32,000 nt of DNA from Delftia acidovorans NBRC 14950 (GTDB taxonomy: Bacteria; Pseudomonadota; Gammaproteobacteria; Burkholderiales; Burkholderiaceae_C), in NCBI RefSeq assembly GCF_001598795.1, contig NZ_BCZP01000003.1, positions 90,001-122,000 of the forward strand, read 5' to 3'. Both the position numbers and the translations under genes were made by a program. The notes beneath the pieces were generated by a model. It had not been told where the DNA came from. It worked only from the letters and a program-made list of their open reading frames with translations, and made no database searches. Numbering within the stretch: the stretch's first letter is position 1; the number at the start of each line of letters is the position of its first letter. This document shows positions 2,018-15,553 of this stretch, piece by piece.

Positions 2018-3070
2018 ATGCACGACGATACCCACCCGACCCTCCCGCCGATCGGCTGCAACGGCCGTGGCGTGCAGCGCTCCTCGCGCCACCAGCCCAT
2101 CGGCCTTCAGGAGCTGCCCATACGCGAGCAGTTCCGCCTGGTCAGTGAAACCGGCGCCTTCGACTGCTTCGACCGCCTGCCTCTGCGCACGCAAATGGCC
2201 GAGTACGAGGCCGCCATCGCCGAGTTCAACCTGCCCGTGCACACGGCCAGCTGGTTCTACCGCCTGGGCGAGGACGAGGCCCTGCTGGCCCACAACCTGC
2301 GCATCTGCCAGGCCATAGGCGCGCGCTGCCACAACATCATGACCTTCAAGCACCACCGCGACGGCCATGTGCTGGACGATGCCGAGATCACCGACCACTA
2401 CCTGCGCGTCTACGACGACGCCATGGCTCTGGGCGTGGAGCCCAGCTTCGAGCTGCACGTCAACATGTGGACCGAGGATTTCCTGCGCGTACGCGAGGTG
2501 GCCCGGCGCGTGCAGGCGCATGGCGTGCCCTTCCACTTCACGCTGGACTACAGCCATGTGAACTTCAAGATCGGCAACCCGGCCGAGCAGGAACTGTCGG
2601 GCGTGCGCGAGCTGGTCGAGAGCGGCGAACTGGTGCTGGACCCCTTCGAGCCCGGCTCGCTGTGCGAACAATGGCTGGACATGGGCATCGTGCGCTGGGC
2701 CCAGCTGCGCGCAGCCGGCCCCAACCAGCCCCTGAACCTGTGGCACCGCAACGAAGACGGCAGCCCGGGCCGGGGCATCCAGTACCCCATGCTGCGGCCC
2801 GGCCCCGGCGAATGGCATTCGCCCTGGCACGCCTATCTGCTGGAGCCCTCCAAAGAGGCCATCCGCAAGGTGCTGGCCTACCACCACGCGCACCCGCACA
2901 GCCCGCTGCGCCACCTCACCACCGAATTCATCAACCTGCCCGACTACGGCCTGGGCGCACGCTATGACCTGCTGGCGCAGAACGTGGCGGCCGCACGCTT
3001 CATGCGGCAAGCCTGGGCCGAAATCTGCGCCCGCCCCGCAGTCCAGGCCTCGTGCAAAGGTGCATCATGA
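2018..3070 (+). CDS. Conserved hypothetical protein, possibly xylose-isomerase-like TIM-barrel fold; function unknown
   Basis: 350-aa ORF starting 11 nt after the oxygenase stop, with GGAG at 2008-2011. Its stop overlaps the next gene's start (ATGA at 3067-3070). Segments such as SFELHVNMWTEDF and FHFTLDYSHVNF resemble the metal-binding strands of AP-endonuclease-2/sugar-phosphate-isomerase TIM barrels. The fold call rests only on this weak resemblance. Confidence 0.7.
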   Translation: MHDDTHPTLPPIGCNGRGVQRSSRHQPIGLQELPIREQFRLVSETGAFDCFDRLPLRTQMAEYEAAIAEFNLPVHTASWFYRLGEDEALLAHNLRICQAIGARCHNIMTFKHHRDGHVLDDAEITDHYLRVYDDAMALGVEPSFELHVNMWTEDFLRVREVARRVQAHGVPFHFTLDYSHVNFKIGNPAEQELSGVRELVESGELVLDPFEPGSLCEQWLDMGIVRWAQLRAAGPNQPLNLWHRNEDGSPGRGIQYPMLRPGPGEWHSPWHAYLLEPSKEAIRKVLAYHHAHPHSPLRHLTTEFINLPDYGLGARYDLLAQNVAAARFMRQAWAEICARPAVQASCKGAS

Positions 3071-4302
3071 CCCCCGCACAACACGCCCAAGGCCATGCCG
3101 TCATCATCGGCGCCGGGCATGCCGGCGGCACCCTGGCCGCCCTGCTGCGCCAGTACGGCCACCCGGGCCCCATCACCCTGGTCGGCGGCGAAGACCTGCC
3201 GCCCTACCAGCGCCCGCCGCTGTCCAAGGCCTGGCTGCAGCAGGCCATGGGCCCGGACGATCTGCTGCTGCGGCCCGCCAGCGCCTATGCCGACCAGGCC
3301 ATTGCCTTGCGCCTGGGCGTGCGCGCCATGGCCATAGAGCCGGGCTCGCGGCAGGTAGCGCTGAACGACGGGTCGGCACTGCACTACGACCACCTGGTCA
3401 TTGCCACAGGCGCCGCACCGCGCTGGCTGGCCCTGCCCGGGGGTGAGCGGCCCGGCGTGACCTACCTGCGCACCATGGAAGACGCGCAGGCGCTGCGGGG
3501 CCACCTGCAGACCGCCCGCTGCCTGGCCATCATCGGCGGCGGCTATGTGGGTCTCGAAGTCGCATCCACGGCCCGCAAGCTGGGGGTGCAGGTCCGGGTC
3601 ATCGAGCGCGAAGGCAGGCTGCTGTCGCGCAGCACCTCGCCCCAGATGGCCGCACATCTGCACGGCCTGCATGCAGGCCAGGGCGTGGAGGTGCATTTCA
3701 ACGCCTCGGTCACCGCCATCCAGGGCGACAGCCCCACCGGCATCACGGGCCTGAGGATGGCCGATGGCTCCCGCCTGGAGTGCGATGCCGTGCTCATCGG
3801 CGTGGGCGCAGCGCCCAGCGTGGAGCTGGCGCAGTCCCTCGGCCTGGACTGCGCGGGCGGGATTGCCGTGGACGGCGAAGGCCGTACCGCCATGGCCGGC
3901 ATCTACGCCATAGGCGATGCCACGCGCCGCCCCCTGGCCGGCTACCCCGGGCTGCACCGGCTCGAAAGCGTGCCCAGCGCGCTCGAACAGGCCCGGCGCG
4001 CAGCCTGCTCCATCACGGGCCGCGCACTGCCCGCCCATGAAGCGCCCTGGTTCTGGTCCGATCAGTACGACACCAAGCTGCAGATCGCCGGCCTGCCCGG
4101 CCATGGCGACCAGACCGTGCTGCGCGGCGACCCGGCCAGCGGCAGGTTCGCCGTCCTGCACCTGCGCGGTGGCCAGCTGCGCGCCGCCGAATGCGTGAAC
4201 TCACCGGGCGAATTCATGGCAGCGCGCAAGGCCATCGCCGCCACGCACTGCGCCCACCCCAGTTTCCCGCCCCTCCCCCCAAAAGCCCCACCCACGCCAT
4301 GA
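3067..4302 (+). CDS. FAD-dependent ferredoxin-NAD(P)+ reductase (putidaredoxin-reductase / glutathione-reductase type)
   Basis: The ATG at 3067 overlaps the upstream TGA. There are two Rossmann motifs: VIIGAGHAGGTLA and IIGGGYVGLEVA. It also contains YAIGDAT and the C-terminal FWSDQYD motif typical of this reductase family. Confidence 0.9.
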   Translation: MTPAQHAQGHAVIIGAGHAGGTLAALLRQYGHPGPITLVGGEDLPPYQRPPLSKAWLQQAMGPDDLLLRPASAYADQAIALRLGVRAMAIEPGSRQVALNDGSALHYDHLVIATGAAPRWLALPGGERPGVTYLRTMEDAQALRGHLQTARCLAIIGGGYVGLEVASTARKLGVQVRVIEREGRLLSRSTSPQMAAHLHGLHAGQGVEVHFNASVTAIQGDSPTGITGLRMADGSRLECDAVLIGVGAAPSVELAQSLGLDCAGGIAVDGEGRTAMAGIYAIGDATRRPLAGYPGLHRLESVPSALEQARRAACSITGRALPAHEAPWFWSDQYDTKLQIAGLPGHGDQTVLRGDPASGRFAVLHLRGGQLRAAECVNSPGEFMAARKAIAATHCAHPSFPPLPPKAPPTP

Positions 4303-4619
4303 CCACCATCACCTTCATAGAACACAGCGGCCGCGAGCACGTGGTACAGGCCACGGACGGCCAGAGCCTCATGCGCGCCGCCGTCTCCAACGGCGTGCCG
4401 GGCATCGATGCCGAATGCGGCGGCGCCTGTGCCTGCGCCACCTGCCATGTCTACATACAACCGGAGTGGCTGGACCGCGTGGGCCCGGCCCAGGGCGGCG
4501 AAAGGGAGATGCTGGACTTCGCCCTCGACGTGCGCGGCGACTCGCGGCTGGCCTGCCAGATCACGGTATCGCCACAGCTGAATGGGCTGGTAGTGGGCAT
4601 GCCGGTGGCGCAAAGCTGA
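4299..4619 (+). CDS. [2Fe-2S] ferredoxin, putidaredoxin/adrenodoxin type
   Basis: The ATG at 4299 overlaps the reductase TGA (ATGA). 106 aa. Cluster ligands lie in ECGGACACATCHV (C-x5-C-x2-C) plus the distal Cys in RLACQI. Confidence 0.9.
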   Translation: MTTITFIEHSGREHVVQATDGQSLMRAAVSNGVPGIDAECGGACACATCHVYIQPEWLDRVGPAQGGEREMLDFALDVRGDSRLACQITVSPQLNGLVVGMPVAQS

Positions 4620-4832
4620 CGCAGGTACCGCCCTCGGCATTCGGGAGGCATCTTCAGAAACTGCCTTTGAACGCGTATGGCTGGATATTCCTGCGCGTTG
4701 ACTAGCATTGCAATGGGTGAGAGACCGACCAAGACAGACATAGCTGCTGCTATCGTGAGCAGAATCCCACTCTCTGCCATCACCGGAGCCACTGTCTTGA
4801 ACATGTCAAACGCCGACTCAACTATTTGGAAT

Positions 4833-4844
4833 TCTAGATCTAGA
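4833..4844. repeat. Perfect 12-bp palindrome TCTAGATCTAGA, preceded by an overlapping GAATTC
   Basis: Read directly from the sequence: ggAATTCTAGATCTAGActc. The palindrome is its own reverse complement and contains two CTAG tetranucleotides. Confidence 0.9.
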
Positions 4845-4979
4845 CTCTCGCTGCTCTGCAACTAAGAAGGGGGCGCTACTGCTGCACTCGAGACTTGAGC
4901 TATATCGTACTCAGGCCACTGTGACCAGCAATCCCAAACCCCGTTGCCTAGAGCAAGACGACTGATGAAGCCCCGCATA

Positions 4980-4988
4980 CAGTCTTAG
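4980..4988. repeat. Left copy of the 9-bp direct repeat CAGTCTTAG flanking the AT-rich insert
   Basis: Exact match to 6089-6097. It lies 39 nt beyond the stop of the orphan gene. Confidence 0.6.
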
Positions 4989-5026
4989 ATTCTTTCGGAT
5001 CTACTACTCACCCACACCATTAGCCC

Positions 5027-6040
5027 TTACTTATAGCAATCCACCATTCTATGAAAAATAATCCCCCTTTGCTCTGCCGATTTTACTTTCATCTGATTCC
5101 ATGAGATTTTCCTAAAAAGATCGCTTTTTCTGCTTATCAAAAAGGCCCTCTCGTGATTGCTAGGAACAGGGATCACTTTCATTACTGGATCAGTAGATAC
5201 TACCAATTTCATTTCTTCTTCGGTGAGAGCACACTTATTTGCTGGGCCAGCATCAAATTCAAAAACTATTGCCGACAGAATAATCTCTACGAAATTTTTA
5301 GAAAACCCCATTGTTGCCACGTGCACACCTGTATAAGAGGCCAAAAAACTCATGAACAGCAAAATAGCCATTCCGATCTTTCTCAAATGGACCCGCGTAT
5401 GAACAAGTATTCCGACATCACTTGATCTATTCAAAGAAAACAACACAGGAAATATTTTACCTGTGGATTTTCGCTTCTTATCACCTATTTTAGAAAACAC
5501 AGTAAGAAAGGCAACCTCAAACATCAACGCAAAAATACTCAATAAAAGAGAAACAAACGTCAACAAAAAAATACATATTGCCGCAATACTTGCCATAGGC
5601 ACAGTTGAGGCATGAATTTTCAAAATATCGCCAACCATTACAGATGCATAACCTCTGGCCAGATAAACAACAAATACAGGAAGAACCAACAAAGCAATTC
5701 TAAAGAATACATCAGCCCAGAGAATTCTGAAGAAATTTATTTTTGAAAAAACAGACAAGGTCAAAGAAGAAACCAAGAAAACATAACCCAGAACAATCAC
5801 TAAAAACCAAAATAGATTAAACGAATTATTCAGAGAAAAAAACAATAAAGCCATCGATGAAATATGTAAAAAAGATATAATCCAGACCCATGTACCAGAT
5901 ATTGATCTGAGCTGTTTTTCAAAAATAACAGAAGCCATCCTTCTGTAAAAACTCCAACTCCTGCATATCCAAGCTGCAAGAAACACATTCACCAACAAAT
6001 AAATAAAAACAATCAAAACAACGCAAAAAACCTTCAACAT
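5027..6040 (-). CDS. Orphan polytopic membrane protein (about 7-8 predicted TM helices plus a ~75-aa soluble C-terminal tail); no family recognised
   Basis: 337-aa ORF with ATG at 6040 in DNA of about one-third G+C. Hydrophobic runs include KVFCVVLIVFIYLLVNVFLAAWI, TWVWIISFLHISSMALLFFSL, LFWFLVIVLGYVFLVSSLTLSVF, VFFRIALLVLPVFVVYLA, MASIAAICIFLLTFVSLLLSIFALMF and IGMAILLFMSFLASYTGVHVA. The C-terminus DAGPANKCALTEEEMKLVV...RMVDCYK is polar. This is the only long ORF in the AT-rich block. Confidence 0.7.
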   Translation of the reverse strand: MLKVFCVVLIVFIYLLVNVFLAAWICRSWSFYRRMASVIFEKQLRSISGTWVWIISFLHISSMALLFFSLNNSFNLFWFLVIVLGYVFLVSSLTLSVFSKINFFRILWADVFFRIALLVLPVFVVYLARGYASVMVGDILKIHASTVPMASIAAICIFLLTFVSLLLSIFALMFEVAFLTVFSKIGDKKRKSTGKIFPVLFSLNRSSDVGILVHTRVHLRKIGMAILLFMSFLASYTGVHVATMGFSKNFVEIILSAIVFEFDAGPANKCALTEEEMKLVVSTDPVMKVIPVPSNHERAFLISRKSDLFRKISWNQMKVKSAEQRGIIFHRMVDCYK

Positions 6041-6088
6041 AATTCTTTCTCATCCCAAATTTAAATCCCACCACATTTGACACTCCAT

Positions 6089-6097
6089 CAGTCTTAG
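6089..6097. repeat. Right copy of the 9-bp direct repeat CAGTCTTAG
   Basis: Exact match to 4980-4988. It contains the LysR stop codon (TTA on the plus strand at 6094-6096). Confidence 0.6.
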
Positions 6098-7023
6098 CGT
6101 CTACCCGCTACCGCCCGCAAACACTCCACCAGCAATCTCGTCGTCGCCGTCATCGGCTGGCCGCGCAGGGTGATCAGGCCCACGGGCGGCAGGTCGATCG
6201 GCACGGGCAGGTCCAGCACGGCGACCAGCCCCTGCTGCGCGAAATGCTGCGCCACGCCGCGCGCCATGAAGGCCACGGCGCCGCGCTGGTGCAGGAAGCT
6301 GATCTGCGACAGGAATGAGGCGGACTCGACCAGATCGGCCGGCGGATGCAGGCCGTGGGCGAAGAACTGCTGCTCCAGCTTCACGCGCAGCGATGCCCAG
6401 GGCGGGGGCATGACGCAGGGCATGTCGGCCAGCGCCTGCCAGCTCGCAGCCTGCGCCAGCAACGCATGGCCGGGGCGCACGACGGCGACCATGGGCTCGT
6501 CGTACAGGGCTTCGGTCTCCAGGTCGGGCGAGGCATAGCCGGGTTCGAGCCGGCCCACGAACAGGTCCAGCTCGCCCATGCGCAGCTTGGGCAGCAGCCG
6601 CGTGAGATCGCCCTCCTCGACCAGCACCGTGGTCTGGGCCGATCGCGCCTTCAACTGCTCGACGGCCCGGGCCAGCAGCACGGGCGTGGCCACCACCATG
6701 GCGCCCACGCTGGTGCGCCCGCGTGTGCCGCTGGCCTCGGCCGCCATTTCATCGCGCGTGCGTTCAAAGCCCGCCAGCACCGAGCGCGCAAAGCGCACCA
6801 TGCTGACGCCGGCCGCCGTGGGCTCGGTGCCGCGCGTGGAGCGCTCGAACAGCGTCATGTCCAGCATGCGCTCTATCTCGGCCAGGGTCTTGGAGACGGC
6901 GGGCTGGGTGACGGCCAGGAACTCGGCGGCGCGGCCCAGGTGGCGGAACTGGTCCAGGGCCACCAGCAGCTGCAGGTGGCGCAGCTTGAGGTTGGAGCGC
7001 AGCACGCGGTCTATCTTGCTCAT
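6094..7023 (-). CDS. LysR-family transcriptional regulator
   Basis: 309 aa. N-terminal HTH: LRHLQLLVALDQFRHLGRAAEFLAVTQPAVSKTLAEIERMLDMTLFERSTRG. Divergent from the catabolic operon starting at 7161. Confidence 0.9.
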   Translation of the reverse strand: MSKIDRVLRSNLKLRHLQLLVALDQFRHLGRAAEFLAVTQPAVSKTLAEIERMLDMTLFERSTRGTEPTAAGVSMVRFARSVLAGFERTRDEMAAEASGTRGRTSVGAMVVATPVLLARAVEQLKARSAQTTVLVEEGDLTRLLPKLRMGELDLFVGRLEPGYASPDLETEALYDEPMVAVVRPGHALLAQAASWQALADMPCVMPPPWASLRVKLEQQFFAHGLHPPADLVESASFLSQISFLHQRGAVAFMARGVAQHFAQQGLVAVLDLPVPIDLPPVGLITLRGQPMTATTRLLVECLRAVAGRR

Positions 7024-12434: not shown

Positions 12435-14074
12435 GACGCGCGCTCCAGCGTGGGGGCATGGCTGGCGGCCCGGGCTTGCGTGCGGGGCACTGCAGCCGCT
12501 GCCGGCTTGCCGCGCAGCAGCCACCAGGCCACCACGCCGTGGATGGCGGCCAGGCCCAGCATCAGCAGCTCGAAGCTGGCGATGCTCCACTGCCCGTTGG
12601 CCAGGGTCTGCACCAGCGAAGCACCGCCCGTCAGCAGGTTGAGCAGGGGCAGCAGCGCATACAGCACGGCGGCCAGCGCCATCTGCTGCAGCCAGGCATT
12701 GCGGTGCGAGACCCGCAGCGGATGCAGCAGGCACAGCAGCCAGATGATGAAGAAGCCGTTGATCTCCCAATCACTGCGCGCCTGCATGGGCACGGGCAGC
12801 AGGCGGTTGAGCCAGAAGAAACCGGCCACGGCCACCGACAGGCCCGCGATGGAGCCCACGTTGAGCACCTCCACCAGCCTGTGGCCGAAGGGCGTGCGGC
12901 CTAGCTTGCGGCGCTCGGGCATGCGCTTGACCACCCACAGCACCATGCCCGACGCGGCCATGAAGGTGCCGACCACGCCGCTGAGCAGCAGCAGCCAGCG
13001 CATGGCCGGCTCGGCAAAGCGGCCCAGGTGCACGCCGGTGATCACGTTGCCGGTGGCACGCACCCAGGAGATGGCGGGCGCCTCGGGGCTGGCCTGCAAC
13101 TGGCCGGTCACGCCGTCGAAGCGCAGGGTCTCGGACTGGCCGCGGTTGATGAGGCTCATGCCACCGCCTTCGCGCAGTTCGACCACCGCGCGCGAGGTGC
13201 CGGGCGCGTTGACCGTGATGCTGCCCACGCCGTGCTCGGGCCAGCGGCGCGCGCCCTCGGCCATCATGGGCGCGATATCGGCCAGCGCGGCGGCCTGGCG
13301 CTCCTGTTTGCCACCGCGCGCGCCCGGGCCCTGGTTGGCCGCCTGCCCGCGTGCCCCGCGCACATCGGCGAAGTAGGCATTGGTGTCGCCGTTGTAGGCC
13401 GCCTGTATGCCCCAGGGCATGAGCATGAACATCAGCAGCACCAGGCCGCTGAAGGTGATGACGATGTGAAACGGCAATGCCAGCACGGCCGTGGCGTTGT
13501 GCGCATCCAGCCAGGAGCGCTGGCCCTTGCGCGGGCGGAAGGTGAAGAAGTCCGTGAAGATCTTCTTGTGCGTGATCACGCCCGTGATGATGGCCACGAA
13601 CATCAGCATGGTGGCGAAGCCCACGATCCAGCGGCCCCAGATGCGCGGCATGGCGTGCAGCTCGAAGTGGAAGCGGTAGAAGAAGTTGCCGGCGCGTGTC
13701 TCGCGCGGCTCCAGCTTCTCGCCCGTGGCGGCGTCGATCTCGGCGCGCTTGGTGCCTGCGCGGCCCGTGGCGGCGCCGGGCTCGCGCCAGGATGCGGCCA
13801 CCGCCACCTGGCGCGGGCCGGGCAGGCCCAGCGTCCAGGTCGTGGCCTCCGGCGCGATGCGCTGCATGGCGTTCAATGCGCGCTGCGCGGTGTCGGCGTC
13901 CTGCACCGAGCCGTGCAGCTCGGGCCGCATCCAGTCGTTGATCTCGTCGCGGAAATAGCTCAGGGTGCCCGTGAAGAACACCGCGTAGAGCAGCCAGCCC
14001 AGCAGCAGGCCGCTCCAGGTGTGCAGCCAGGACATGGACTGGCGCAGTCCCTCGGGTTTGCCGTCTGCCCTCAT
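12431..14074 (-). CDS. PepSY-associated TM-helix protein (PiuB-like iron-regulated membrane protein / putative ferric-siderophore reductase)
   Basis: The ATG at 14074 overlaps the upstream stop (ATGA). SWLHTWSGLLLGWLLYAVFFTGTLSYFRDEINDWMRPE is the family-typical N-terminus. There are several TM helices and His-rich helices (HKKIF, HNATAVLALPFH). Confidence 0.85.
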   Translation of the reverse strand: MRADGKPEGLRQSMSWLHTWSGLLLGWLLYAVFFTGTLSYFRDEINDWMRPELHGSVQDADTAQRALNAMQRIAPEATTWTLGLPGPRQVAVAASWREPGAATGRAGTKRAEIDAATGEKLEPRETRAGNFFYRFHFELHAMPRIWGRWIVGFATMLMFVAIITGVITHKKIFTDFFTFRPRKGQRSWLDAHNATAVLALPFHIVITFSGLVLLMFMLMPWGIQAAYNGDTNAYFADVRGARGQAANQGPGARGGKQERQAAALADIAPMMAEGARRWPEHGVGSITVNAPGTSRAVVELREGGGMSLINRGQSETLRFDGVTGQLQASPEAPAISWVRATGNVITGVHLGRFAEPAMRWLLLLSGVVGTFMAASGMVLWVVKRMPERRKLGRTPFGHRLVEVLNVGSIAGLSVAVAGFFWLNRLLPVPMQARSDWEINGFFIIWLLCLLHPLRVSHRNAWLQQMALAAVLYALLPLLNLLTGGASLVQTLANGQWSIASFELLMLGLAAIHGVVAWWLLRGKPAAAAVPRTQARAASHAPTLERAS

Positions 14075-14397
14075 GCGGCGGCTCCGTTCGACAGCATCCA
14101 GGCCAGAAGTCCCAGGCCCGCGCCCGGCAGGCCGATCACGGCCCAGGCGCGCCAGGCGCTGGCGCAGCCAAAGGCCCACATGGCCGCCACGGCGTAGATG
14201 ATGAAGGCCAGCAGCGTCGAGCCCAGCGCCGCATCGGCCCGTTCCACGCCCAGCCAGACCATGGCGCGCGCGCCCGTAGCGGCGCAGGCGGCCGACAGCA
14301 GATAGCCGCCGCCGATCGCCGCCAAGGCGCGCGAGGCCACGGCCACGCGGTAGCGCAGCAAGGATGGAGAGGACCCTCCCGGGGTCGAGGCTTGCAT
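14071..14397 (-). CDS. DUF3649-like small membrane protein
   Basis: 108 aa starting from the ATG at 14397 (MQASTPGG...). It has three hydrophobic segments. It is translationally coupled to the PepSY gene. Confidence 0.6.
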   Translation of the reverse strand: MQASTPGGSSPSLLRYRVAVASRALAAIGGGYLLSAACAATGARAMVWLGVERADAALGSTLLAFIIYAVAAMWAFGCASAWRAWAVIGLPGAGLGLLAWMLSNGAAA

Positions 14398-14545
14398 GGG
14401 GATGACCTTTCTTGCGGATCGTTGCCCGTCATGGACGCCGTGGCCGCAGCGCAGGCCCGGACGGACAAAGGCGCCACAACAGTTCAAGGTCTGTGCGGCG
14501 CCGGGCGTTGGCCGCGCGCCTGGAGCACGCCGCCTCTCAAAGAGC

Positions 14546-14569
14546 GGGAATGATAATTATTTTTATTAC
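14546..14569. promoter_or_regulatory. Fur-box-like site upstream of the DUF3649-PepSY-DUF3325 operon
   Basis: GGGAATGATAATTATTTTTATTAC. Positions 14546-14564 match the 19-bp Fur consensus GATAATGATAATCATTATC at 14/19, including a perfect AATGATAAT core. It is the only AT-rich patch in this intergenic region. Confidence 0.55.
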
Positions 14570-14593
14570 CCGAGTCATTTAAAGAAATGCAAA

Positions 14594-14615
14594 GCCGGCC
14601 TCCTGTCACCGGCCC
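14594..14615 (-). terminator. Weak terminator-like hairpin after the EamA gene
   Basis: The minus strand reads GCCGG-tgacaggag-CCGGC followed by TTTGCATTTCTTT. The stem is only 5 bp. Confidence 0.3.
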
Positions 14616-14641
14616 CGGCCATCTCCCTGGCGCCTGTTCCC

Positions 14642-15553
14642 CTATCGCGCCCGCCCCGCCAGCCAGCGCCCGCCGAACTGGTTGATCACCATGCCCGCCA
14701 GCACGGCCAGCGTGCCCATCCACTGCATCAAGGTAGGCCGCTCGCCCAGCAGCAGCATGGCCGAGACCAGGCCCACCACGGGCACCATCAGAGACAGCGG
14801 CGCCACCGTGCCGGCCGCATAGCGCTGCAGCAGGCGCGTCCACAGGCCGTAGCCCAGCAGCGTGGCCAGCAGCGCCAGGTACAGGATGGAGGCCACGGCG
14901 GTCAGGTCGATCCCCGCCAGTTGCTGCACGACCGTATCCGCGCCATCGGTCCAGACGGCCAGGGCCATCAGCGGCGCGATGGGAAAGATGCTGCTCCAGA
15001 CGATGAAGGGGAAGGGCTCGTAGGGGCCGCTGCGCGCCGCATAGCGCGTGATCATGTTGGACACGGCCCACATGCAGGCTGCGCCCACGGTCAGCAAAAA
15101 GCCGGCCAGCGTCATGGCGTTGTCGCCTTCGCCATGGGCGCTGCCAATGGCAACCAGCCCGCCCAGCGATACCACCAGGCCCAGCCAATGCCACAGGCGC
15201 GCGGGCTCGCCCAGCAGGAAGGCGGCCAGCAGCAGCGTGACGAAGGCCTGCGTCTGCAGCACCACCGAGGCCATGCCGGCCGGCATGCCCAGCTTCAGGC
15301 CCAGGAACAGCATGCCGAACTGGCCCACGCCCTGCACCAGCCCATAGGCGGCCAGATAGCGCCAGCCCACCGACTTGGGCGGGCGCACGAACAGCAAAAA
15401 GGGCAGCGACGCCACCACAAAGCGCAGCGCACTCAGCAGCATGGGCGACAGCGTCAGCAGACCGAACTTCATGGCCACGAAGTTGGTGCCCCAGATCAGG
15501 ATGACCAGCAGCGCACGCGCCCAGTCGCCACGGCTCAGGTGCTGCGCGGTCAT
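14642..15553 (-). CDS. EamA-family (DMT superfamily) transporter
   Basis: The track start at 15583 is a TTG codon. The ATG at 15553 has GAGGG 9 nt upstream. About 10 TM helices in two EamA repeats (LLVILIWGTNFVAMKF...; LALLATLLGYGLWTRLLQRY). Confidence 0.85.
   Translation of the reverse strand: MTAQHLSRGDWARALLVILIWGTNFVAMKFGLLTLSPMLLSALRFVVASLPFLLFVRPPKSVGWRYLAAYGLVQGVGQFGMLFLGLKLGMPAGMASVVLQTQAFVTLLLAAFLLGEPARLWHWLGLVVSLGGLVAIGSAHGEGDNAMTLAGFLLTVGAACMWAVSNMITRYAARSGPYEPFPFIVWSSIFPIAPLMALAVWTDGADTVVQQLAGIDLTAVASILYLALLATLLGYGLWTRLLQRYAAGTVAPLSLMVPVVGLVSAMLLLGERPTLMQWMGTLAVLAGMVINQFGGRWLAGRAR

What the first reader, a model, noticed from the sequence alone, without database searches (positions are those of the whole stretch)
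4620..6097. Low-GC single-gene islet bracketed by a perfect 9-bp direct repeat, with no mobility gene
About 1.47 kb sits between two convergent high-GC core genes (ferredoxin stop at 4619, LysR stop at 6094), and its composition collapses. Hand counts of G+C give 18/60 at 5701-5760, 27/60 at 4801-4860 and 31/60 at 4681-4740. The inner ~1.1 kb carries exactly one gene (5027..6040, minus strand). It is bracketed by CAGTCTTAG at 4980-4988 and 6089-6097. The right copy contains the LysR stop codon, so the insert abuts that gene without damaging it, as expected for a target-site duplication or an att-like core. Allowing about 100 x 100 position pairs near the two boundaries, a chance 9-mer match has an expectation of roughly 0.04. 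I see no integrase, transposase, terminal inverted repeats, tRNA target or attC-like site, so no element class I recognise explains how the DNA arrived. This is the only clearly accessory DNA in the window.
Basis: partly seen in the sequence, partly recalled or inferred. Interest (0 to 1): 0.7.

Follow-up and report, generated by a model that had tools for sequence, protein, structure and literature searches.

The report
Foreign single-gene islet at recombination hotspot
A 1.5-kb stretch of foreign, low-GC DNA carrying one uncharacterised membrane-protein gene is one of several alternative fillings of a variable spot between two core genes of Delftia; this is an ordinary integrase-free gene-exchange hotspot, and the 9-bp "bracketing repeat" is a coincidence.

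Summary
The raw observation holds. GC falls to about 0.33, there is one 337-aa ORF (5027..6040, minus strand), and CAGTCTTAG occurs at 4980 and 6089.

Twenty related Delftia loci, about 98% identical on both flanks, show three states at this site:
- An empty site in 8 genomes: a 54-90 bp spacer with a (CTTCCG)n microsatellite.
- An unrelated four-gene islet in 9 loci.
- This islet in 2 genomes, plus further short-read-assembly contigs.

By comparison the islet spans 4620-6109. It replaces the spacer and the last LysR codons. Both 9-mer copies lie inside islet-specific DNA, and none of the 9 empty-site sequences contains the 9-mer. Repeats of this size are at chance level (shuffle P 0.11-0.44).

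The islet differs by only 0.47% between carriers whose flanks differ by 1.2-2.5%, and flank haplotypes reshuffle within tens of bp of both junctions. This fits a hotspot without mobile elements, exchanged by homologous recombination in the flanking core genes.

The cargo is a real, solitary protein family confined to Burkholderiales wherever the host is known (56 homologues). It has six TM helices and a periplasmic Cys-pair domain (AF2 pLDDT 93), with no known fold or family. Some members lie beside Rhs, PAAR/TsiV or defence genes. Its function is inferred only: an orphan immunity or exclusion protein.

The parts
4620..6109 (.). The whole islet as defined by comparison: 1490 bp, GC 0.40. It is absent from empty-site Delftia and replaced by other DNA in further strains.
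   Evidence: Homology with L004, L005 and L090-L099 stops at 4619 and resumes at 6110. It is 99.5% identical in L099 and identical in L122.
5027..6040 (-). Cargo gene: a 337-aa inner-membrane protein with six predicted TM helices (N-out/C-out) and a roughly 95-aa C-terminal periplasmic alpha/beta domain. D263 and C335 are invariant; C270 is nearly invariant.
   Evidence: ORF. 56 homologues by phmmer. Alignment A1. AF2 mean pLDDT 93.1. Hydropathy and positive-inside analysis. NCBI names it hypothetical or putative membrane protein, WP_155294192.1.
6041..6093 (-). 53-bp low-GC leader between the LysR stop and the cargo ATG. The cargo is co-oriented with lysR, and no sigma-70-like site was flagged upstream of it.
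6094..6109 (-). Allele-specific LysR tail: the third base of codon 305, codons 306-309 (AGRR) and stop TAA. It is supplied by the islet and replaces the ancestral tail GNGLASR*.
4620..5026 (.). 407-bp non-coding tail of the islet with intermediate GC (0.526). No homologue and no RNA-structure signal were found. It may be decayed remnant DNA.
4980..4988 (+). Left copy of CAGTCTTAG. It lies 360 bp inside the islet and is judged coincidental.
6089..6097 (+). Right copy of CAGTCTTAG. It overlaps the islet-supplied LysR stop codon, lies inside allele-specific DNA, and is judged coincidental.
6094..7023 (-). LysR-family regulator (309 aa), a core gene forming the right flank of the hotspot.
   Evidence: Pfam HTH_1 + LysR_substrate. 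Orthologues found in 80 species.
4299..4619 (+). 2Fe-2S ferredoxin (106 aa), the last gene of a Rieske-oxygenase cluster and the left flank of the hotspot.
   Evidence: Pfam Fer2. Gene tables.

Best explanation
Window 4620-6109 is one of at least three alternative alleles of an integrase-free horizontal-transfer hotspot. The hotspot lies between the convergent ferredoxin and LysR genes of Delftia.

Shown:
- The same interval is empty, holds an unrelated four-gene islet, or holds this islet, in strains whose flanks are all about 98% identical.
- The islet replaces the ancestral 54-90 bp spacer and the last LysR codons.
- It is much less diverged between carriers than their flanks are.
- Flank haplotypes are reshuffled right up to its edges.

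Inferred:
- The foreign DNA (GC3 0.35) was first joined here, or in a donor Delftia lineage, by a one-off illegitimate or microhomology event.
- It is now gained and lost within the species by RecA-type double homologous recombination in the flanking core genes, after transformation, transduction or conjugation. It needs no element-encoded enzyme.
- The 9-bp repeat plays no role.

Cargo (inferred, low confidence): the cargo is a solitary, horizontally mobile inner-membrane protein whose conserved surfaces face the periplasm. I take it most likely to be a conflict-related protector. It could be an orphan immunity protein against a periplasm- or membrane-acting toxin delivered by T6SS or Rhs systems, or a phage-exclusion protein. 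It is probably expressed by read-through from lysR or from a weak promoter of its own.
For: Alleles:
- Empty: L091/L120, L093, L097, L118, L123-L126.
- Four-gene: L005, L090, L092, L094-L096, L098, L119, L121, L127.
- This islet: window = L122, L099, L001-L003.

Flanks and divergence:
- Flanks are 97-99% identical to the window whatever the allele.
- Pairwise flank distances are 1.1-2.5% and unrelated to allele state.
- Islet divergence between the window and L099 is 0.47% (6 SNPs and 1 indel in 1490 bp). By contrast there are 6 SNPs in the 67 bp just left of the islet and 7 in the 400 bp just right of it.
- The two ferredoxin 3'-end haplotypes and the TCTCG/CCGCG LysR haplotypes segregate independently of the allele.
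- The four-gene islet co-diverges with its flanks: 1.2-2.5% within the species and about 9% between species. It is therefore an old allele.

No mobility signature:
- No mobility genes, no tRNA (61), no Rfam hit (60).
- No plasmid or phage homologues.
- The same LysR 3' flank is variable in Paracidovorax. A PARIS AriA/AriB pair sits there in P. valerianellae, and a 2.7-kb low-GC insert sits in P. konjaci where P. citrulli has about 100 bp.

Cargo:
- 56 homologues, conserved motifs, AF2 pLDDT 93.
- No conserved partner gene in 17 loci.
- Members usually have lower GC than their host.
- Some neighbours are conflict-related: an Rhs orphan-toxin array (L087), PAAR + VRR-NUC + TsiV (L100-103), Cap15-like genes (L084) and a KAP NTPase (L112).
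Against: - Homologous recombination is inferred from population patterns in about 20 loci, not from a formal recombination test or an experiment.
- The original joining event is not reconstructed, and no donor was found.
- A weak 11/19 resemblance of the first bases after the ferredoxin stop to the empty spacer leaves the left junction uncertain by about 20 bp.
- The cargo function rests only on topology and on loose neighbourhood association in roughly 5 of 13 contexts. Other members sit among ordinary metabolic genes.
- PADLOC, Pfam, NCBIfam, PHROGs, PDB and BFVD give nothing.
Confidence: 0.72

Rival explanations
1. A discrete unit of about 1.1 kb (4989-6097) inserted by transposition or site-specific recombination and generated or used the 9-bp CAGTCTTAG as a target-site duplication or att core. 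The enzyme would be supplied in trans.
For: The 9-mer is exact and extends to 12/14. Its copies lie 39 bp after the cargo stop and 49 bp before the cargo start, and the right copy spans the LysR stop. Two other family loci have significant flanking direct repeats: L104 (41/47 nt) and L108 (18/20 nt).
Against: - None of 9 empty-site sequences has the 9-mer.
- Both copies lie inside allele-specific DNA, and no allele has 4620-4988 without the gene among 20 loci.
- The repeat is at chance level (P 0.11 and 0.44).
- There are no terminal inverted repeats.
- The repeats in L104 and L108 differ in length and sequence. The L104 repeat is a duplicated fragment of the neighbouring GerE/LuxR gene, not a shared att site.
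- 12 of 14 family loci show nothing above chance.
Confidence: 0.04
2. The islet is the decayed stump of a once larger mobile element, such as a prophage, integrative element or defence island. That element integrated at the LysR 3' end with its own integrase and later lost everything except one gene and 400 bp of junk.
For: The 407-bp non-coding, intermediate-GC tail (4620-5026) looks like eroded sequence. The LysR tail is replaced, as happens when elements integrate into gene 3' ends. The LysR 3' flank is repeatedly occupied in other genera.
Against: There is no remnant of an integrase, no att repeat and no displaced original LysR tail at the far end. There is no similarity to any phage or plasmid record. 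None of the alternative islets at this site, in Delftia or Paracidovorax, carries a recombinase.
Confidence: 0.12
3. The gene is an old resident of the locus, and the empty and four-gene states are derived by deletion or replacement. The low GC would merely reflect a membrane-protein composition.
For: Membrane proteins rich in F, I and L are somewhat AT-biased, and some family members approach host GC (L089, L107).
Against: - GC3 of 0.35 against 0.85-0.92 in the neighbours cannot be a matter of amino-acid composition.
- The islet is absent from D. acidovorans MMO-42, D. tsuruhatensis NBRC 16741, Delftia sp. PS-11 and all other genera examined.
- Empty-site LysR tails match the tail pattern shared by other Delftia (G.SLA[ST]R), whereas the window's tail does not.
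- The islet is younger than its flanks (0.47% against 1.2-2.5%).
Confidence: 0.03

Closest known systems
[quoted passage not shown] Related concepts are the core defence hotspots of Pseudomonas aeruginosa (PMC10250203) and the hotspots of the E. coli defence-island repertoire (PMC10121019).
   Same: One interval between two conserved core genes holds different, unrelated accessory genes or nothing in closely related strains. There is no integrase, transposase or tRNA. Flanks are shuffled relative to cargo. In a sister genus the same flank holds a bona fide defence system, PARIS.
   Different: The scale is very small: one gene in 1.5 kb, where Oliveira et al. define hotspots by many transferred genes. 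The junction lies inside the last codons of a gene, so each allele gives LysR a different C-terminal tail. No formal recombination-rate test was run here.
Orphan immunity genes of polymorphic-toxin systems (Rhs, T6SS, CDI). As an example, orphan immunity proteins are discussed in PMC10539506.
   Same: It is a stand-alone, horizontally mobile, low-GC gene without a partner. Family members lie inside an Rhs orphan-toxin array (L087) and directly beside a PAAR/VRR-NUC/TsiV module (L100-103). The conserved surfaces face the periplasm, where many T6SS effectors act.
   Different: No member has been seen immediately downstream of a toxin domain it could neutralise. In L087 the adjacent Rhs tip is followed first by a 249-aa gene. 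At 337 aa with six TM helices it is much larger than typical immunity proteins. There is no sequence or fold match to any Tsi, Imm or CdiI family.
Genomic islands integrated into the 3' end of a gene by a tyrosine integrase (classical att-flanked islands; review PMC2704930).
   Same: The foreign DNA abuts and rewrites the 3' end of a gene while leaving the gene functional. It is co-oriented with that gene.
   Different: There is no integrase, no att direct repeat present once in the empty site, and no displaced original 3' end at the far junction.

Membership tests
Transposon / insertion-sequence-type insertion | Target-site duplication: the flanking repeat is target DNA present once in the empty site | tested here: not met
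   Nine empty-site sequences lack CAGTCTTAG on either strand. Both copies lie in islet-specific DNA.
Transposon / insertion-sequence-type insertion | Terminal inverted repeats and a transposase | tested here: not met
   There is no inverted repeat at the ends of either 4620-6109 or 4989-6088. The only ORF has no transposase or any Pfam match.
Integrase-mediated genomic island or prophage remnant | Integrase gene in or next to the island | tested here: not met
   Gene tables with Pfam hits for about 16 kb around the identical locus show no integrase or recombinase. Window 16-32 kb was not annotated.
Integrase-mediated genomic island or prophage remnant | att direct repeats, often at a tRNA or gene 3' end, with a core present in the empty site | tested here: not met
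   No tRNA in the window. Flanking repeats are at chance level. The 9-mer is absent from empty sites.
Integron gene cassette | attC recombination site (imperfect palindrome of about 60-140 bp) downstream of the ORF, and an intI/attI platform | tested here: inconclusive
   No long imperfect palindrome in 4620-5026 and no excess folding (z +0.06 and -1.17). No dedicated attC model was available. No intI among the annotated neighbours.
MGE-free HGT hotspot (Oliveira et al. 2017) | The same interval between the same core genes holds different accessory content in conspecific genomes | tested here: met
   Empty, four-gene and 337-aa alleles occur in loci with flanks about 98% identical.
MGE-free HGT hotspot (Oliveira et al. 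2017) | Absence of mobility-associated proteins | tested here: met
MGE-free HGT hotspot (Oliveira et al. 2017) | Elevated homologous recombination in the flanking core genes | tested here: inconclusive
   Allele state is uncoupled from flank distances. The islet is 0.47% diverged against 1.2-2.5% for the flanks. Flank haplotypes are shuffled within 7-70 bp of the junctions. No ClonalFrameML-type test or genome-wide baseline was possible.
Polymorphic-toxin immunity protein (orphan) | Encoded immediately downstream of a cognate toxin in at least some genomes | tested here: inconclusive
   Members occur in an Rhs array (L087) and next to PAAR/VRR-NUC/TsiV (L100-103), but not directly after a toxin domain. 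Most contexts have no toxin.
Polymorphic-toxin immunity protein (orphan) | Neutralises a specific toxin | not testable with these tools
   This needs competition or co-expression assays.
Known anti-phage defence system | Match to a curated defence-protein model | tested here: not met
   PADLOC gave 0 hits for the window protein. The single family-member hit (RTasSLATT, E=0.09, 1 of 42) is negligible. PHROGs gave 0 hits.

The most novel reading that the evidence does not exclude
The 337-aa protein may found a new class of single-gene inner-membrane protectors. It has six TM helices and a disulfide-bonded periplasmic domain, with no detectable similarity to any solved structure (PDB) or predicted viral structure (BFVD). 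Such a protein would spread through Burkholderiales as a stand-alone cassette and confer resistance either to a periplasm- or membrane-acting T6SS/Rhs toxin or to phage DNA entry.

A bolder and less likely extension is that the 3' end of this LysR gene is a preferred capture site. Promoterless, co-oriented cargo in Delftia and Paracidovorax would be placed under lysR read-through by an unknown trans-acting mechanism.
Probability: 0.25. Interest if true: 0.6.

Novelty: new member of a known kind. Interest (0 to 1): 0.3.

Why it matters
The finding removes an apparent puzzle of foreign DNA with a "perfect" bracketing repeat and no mobility gene. The repeat is noise, and the locus behaves like the well-described integrase-free hotspots that are swapped by homologous recombination.

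Two things of modest value remain. First, this is a cleanly resolved three-allele hotspot in Delftia. Its junction rewrites the C-terminus of a LysR regulator, and its counterpart in Paracidovorax holds a PARIS defence system, so the site is a good place to look for new conflict genes. Second, the cargo belongs to an unannotated, confidently folded membrane-protein family. That family repeatedly travels alone and sometimes sits in Rhs/T6SS or defence neighbourhoods, which makes it a reasonable candidate for experimental screening as an immunity or exclusion factor.

Tried and rejected
- TSD/att reading of CAGTCTTAG: rejected.
- A second bracketing repeat, ACCAGCAATC (4924/6128): its order relative to the 9-mer is inverted between the two sides, so the pair is not a duplicated segment.
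- A displaced LysR tail or spacer remnant inside 4620-5026: only an 8-mer (CAAGACGA) and a weak 11/19 match next to the ferredoxin stop. Not convincing.
- A coding remnant in 4620-5026: the 82-aa reading frame has no homologue, no Pfam hit and no tblastx hit in 100+ loci.
- RNA element in the tail: no Rfam hit and folding z-scores of +0.06 and -1.17.
- Promoter or terminator for the cargo: only intragenic consensus hits, at background level.
- Protein annotation: Pfam, NCBIfam, PADLOC and PHROGs on the protein and on all 42 aligned members, a PDB sequence profile, and Foldseek against PDB and BFVD were all negative.
- Word-indexed homology search found only the 99% identical copy, and with the profile one further member. 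Exhaustive phmmer was needed.
- Plasmid or phage origin: no tblastn match.
- A conserved partner gene: none in 17 family loci.
- Shared ends between the different islets at this site: no similarity.
- The four small proteins of the alternative islet: no hits in any library.
Full report
**Observation.**
- The ferredoxin gene (4299-4619, Pfam Fer2) ends with TGA at 4617-4619. The LysR gene (6094-7023, minus strand, HTH_1 + LysR_substrate) has its stop at 6094-6096.
- The three hand GC counts are exact.
- GC is 0.354 over the single ORF 5027..6040 (minus strand, 337 aa) and 0.526 over 4620-5026, against 0.68 for the rest of the window. Third-position GC is 0.35 for the ORF, against 0.92 and 0.85 for its neighbours.
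- CAGTCTTAG occurs at 4980-4988 and 6089-6097 and extends to 12 of 14.
- There is no tRNA and no Rfam match.

**Origin of the window and the state of the site in relatives.** The window is identical to Delftia assembly GCA_000741825.1 (L122). A scan for the LysR orthologue in one genome per species, plus exact-protein look-ups of two flanking window genes, gave about 20 Delftia loci. Their flanks are 97-99% identical to the window on both sides. The loci fall into three states:
- Eight genomes are empty. The ferredoxin stop is followed by a 54-90 bp spacer, CGCGGCATCCGGCCGGCCCCAGGCTCA(CTTCCG/CTTCCA)nCTTCCCAAGACGATT, and then a 312-aa LysR ending AVGNGLASR*.
- Nine loci carry an unrelated islet of about 1.8 kb with four small co-oriented ORFs. 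There the LysR stop is lost and the protein runs on for 11 codons (323 aa).
- Two genomes (window/L122 and L099), plus several short-read assemblies (L001-L003), carry the 337-aa islet.

Homology between the window and every other allele stops at 4619 and resumes at 6110. The islet is therefore 4620-6109 (1490 bp). It replaces the whole spacer and the last LysR residues, giving AVAGRR*.

**The 9-bp repeat.** It is absent from all nine empty-site sequences on both strands.
- Both copies lie inside allele-specific DNA. The left copy is 360 bp inside the islet. The right copy spans a stop codon that the islet itself supplies.
- No allele among 20 has 4620-4988 without the gene.
- Statistically the repeat is unremarkable. 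The 1.9-kb region holds ten families of direct repeats of at least 9 nt, including a 10-mer that also brackets the gene.
- Shuffling the two non-coding zones yields a shared 9-mer 11% of the time. A Smith-Waterman comparison of +/-500-bp flanks gives P=0.44.
- The same test across 14 loci carrying homologues is at chance level in 12. The exceptions are L104 (Achromobacter), with a 47-nt duplicated fragment of the adjacent GerE/LuxR gene, and L108 (18/20 nt). These differ in length and sequence, so there is no family-wide att site or TSD.

**History.** Between the two carrier genomes the islet differs at 6 SNPs and 1 indel (0.47%). Their flanks differ by 1.2-2.5%. Six SNPs are packed into the 67 bp immediately left of the islet, and seven into the 400 bp immediately right of it.
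- Flank haplotypes are distributed independently of allele state. The ferredoxin 3' end reads GAATGGG or CGACGGG, and the LysR side reads TCTCG or CCGCG. For example, the window shares TCTCG with the empty strain L097, whereas carrier L099 has CCGCG.
- Pairwise flank distances do not group strains by allele.
- The four-gene islet diverges in step with its flanks: 1.2-2.5% within the species and about 9% against D. acidovorans MMO-42. It is therefore an old allele.
- The empty-site LysR tail resembles the tails of D. tsuruhatensis NBRC 16741 (AVGRSLATR*), Delftia sp. PS-11 (EVGLSLASG*) and the pre-extension part of the four-gene allele. That tail is therefore ancestral, and the window's tail is the replaced one.

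These patterns are what one expects if the islet is comparatively young and moves, or is lost, by homologous recombination whose crossovers fall in the flanking core genes close to the heterology.

**The site in other genera.** Low-GC DNA directly follows the LysR orthologue in Paracidovorax valerianellae. There the insert encodes AriA and AriB of the PARIS defence system. It also follows the orthologue in P. konjaci, where 2.7 kb of low-GC DNA with three unannotated ORFs sits exactly where P. citrulli has about 100 bp before a convergent transporter gene. None of these inserts has a recombinase. Only about 5 of 80 species show a low-GC insert here. I therefore regard the cross-genus recurrence as suggestive rather than proven enrichment.

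**The cargo.** The word-indexed search found only a 99% identical copy. Exhaustive phmmer over 1.8 billion cluster representatives found 56 homologues of 320-370 aa at about 25-35% identity.
- Where hosts are named they are Acidovorax, Paracidovorax, Achromobacter and Delftia, and all are annotated as hypothetical.
- The alignment (A1) has invariant D263 and C335 and near-invariant S96, F260, A264, A267, C270, K288, A299, R304 and L308. There is a conserved loop, KGYA..W.GE....SA.N.P.A, and a C-terminal motif, AFEFDA.PA..C ... K.L.LSSSQEKALLV.R ... C(Y).
- AlphaFold2 on this alignment gives mean pLDDT 93.1 and pTM 0.84.
- Hydropathy and the positive-inside rule give six TM helices with N-out/C-out topology. 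This places the conserved loop and the Cys-pair domain in the periplasm (inference).
- There is no match in Pfam, NCBIfam, PADLOC or PHROGs, for the protein or for any of the 42 aligned members. There is also no match in PDB by sequence profile, or in PDB or BFVD by Foldseek.
- There is no homologue on any plasmid or phage record.
- Across 17 loci there is no conserved partner gene. The gene is usually 5-25 GC points below its host.
- Neighbourhoods are mixed. Some are conflict- or mobility-related: an Rhs orphan-toxin array in P. avenae (Rhs tip, a 249-aa gene, then the homologue 21 bp later), a PAAR/VRR-NUC/TsiV module, Cap15-like genes, a KAP NTPase and an IS3 transposase, and a resolvase/ParB region. 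Others are plain metabolic or regulatory contexts.

**Mechanism.** I commit to the following.
- (a) Shown: this is an allele of a polymorphic hotspot, it is foreign, and it lacks mobility functions.
- (b) Inferred, about 0.75: after a one-off illegitimate joining that overwrote the spacer and the LysR tail, it is exchanged within Delftia by double homologous recombination in the ferredoxin-side and LysR-side core genes. This is the mechanism proposed for mobile-element-free hotspots (PMC5635113).
- (c) Inferred, about 0.3: the protein is a stand-alone periplasm-facing protector, either an orphan immunity protein against membrane- or periplasm-acting T6SS/Rhs toxins or a phage-exclusion protein.

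**Verdict.** The feature is real but ordinary in kind. The striking detail that motivated the finding, a perfect bracketing repeat, is a coincidence. The residual interest lies in the unannotated, confidently folded membrane-protein family and in the site as a small hotspot worth mining.

Noticed in passing
L091, L093, L097, L118, L120, L123-L126 (empty-site spacer; corresponds to the window junction 4619|6110): The empty site's spacer between the two convergent genes is a hexanucleotide microsatellite, (CTTCCG/CTTCCA)n, with 3-8 units and spacer lengths of 54, 60, 66, 72 and 90 bp in different strains. D. tsuruhatensis NBRC 16741 (L004) has a different repeat, (GCAGCC)n, at the same place.
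   Followed up: partly
L004 7925-8080 (D. tsuruhatensis NBRC 16741): In the type strain the ferredoxin gene next to the site is degraded. Two internal deletions leave only fragments of the gene (alignment to the window resumes at 4374), and homology to the Rieske cluster ends at window 1968.
   Followed up: partly
L005 7915-9779; L092, L094-L096, L098, L119, L121, L127: The alternative four-gene islet encodes four small, mostly acidic, tightly packed, co-oriented ORFs (104, 132, 135-144 and 155 aa). None has a hit in Pfam (only sub-threshold DUF7684 and RH3), NCBIfam, PADLOC or PHROGs. Its insertion removed the LysR stop codon, extending LysR by 11 codons. It resembles an immunity-gene array, but this is untested.
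   Followed up: partly
L026 4588-6914 (Paracidovorax valerianellae DSM 16619): A PARIS-type defence pair, AriA (AAA_21/AAA_15 ATPase, 471 aa) and AriB (DUF4435, 304 aa), sits in low-GC DNA starting 197 bp after the LysR orthologue's stop, co-oriented with it.
   Followed up: yes
window ~12079 (between the HpcH/HpaI aldolase gene and the DUF3325 gene); L091, L092, L093, L098 at ~12940-14800: There is a second polymorphic spot in the same neighbourhood. Some Delftia strains carry about 1.9 kb with an EF-hand protein (108-109 aa) and an unannotated 353-403-aa protein here. The window and L094, L095, L097 and L099 have the two core genes adjacent.
   Followed up: no
L104 6903-6948 and 8286-8332 (Achromobacter metagenome contig; also L105, L106, L109): The homologue of the cargo gene is bracketed by a 47-nt imperfect direct repeat (41/47). 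The right copy lies inside the convergent GerE/LuxR-type gene. The left copy heads a decayed fragment of the same gene's 3' part. This suggests an insertion that duplicated or replaced that gene's end. The left flank beyond DUF4148 also differs between L104 and L105.
   Followed up: partly
L087 6518-9023 (Paracidovorax avenae / Acidovorax sp. BLS4, CP136797.1); L088: A low-GC (0.35-0.37) three-gene block lies inside an Rhs array. It comprises an orphan Rhs C-terminal tip with a small toxin domain, a 249-aa ORF overlapping the toxin gene's stop, and then the 340-aa homologue of the cargo 21 bp later. Rhs core fragments lie on both sides.
   Followed up: partly
window 4547-4613 and 6136-6138: Between the two islet-carrying genomes there are 6 SNPs in 67 bp at the ferredoxin 3' end (two haplotypes, QLNGL and QLDGL) and a TCTCG/CCGCG difference 27 bp into LysR. 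Both haplotype pairs also occur in empty and four-gene strains, so the flanks are mosaic right up to the islet edges.
   Followed up: yes
window 2018-3070 (+): A 350-aa ORF conserved inside the TetR / Rieske oxygenase / ferredoxin-reductase / ferredoxin cluster has no Pfam family on record in any of the related loci.
   Followed up: no
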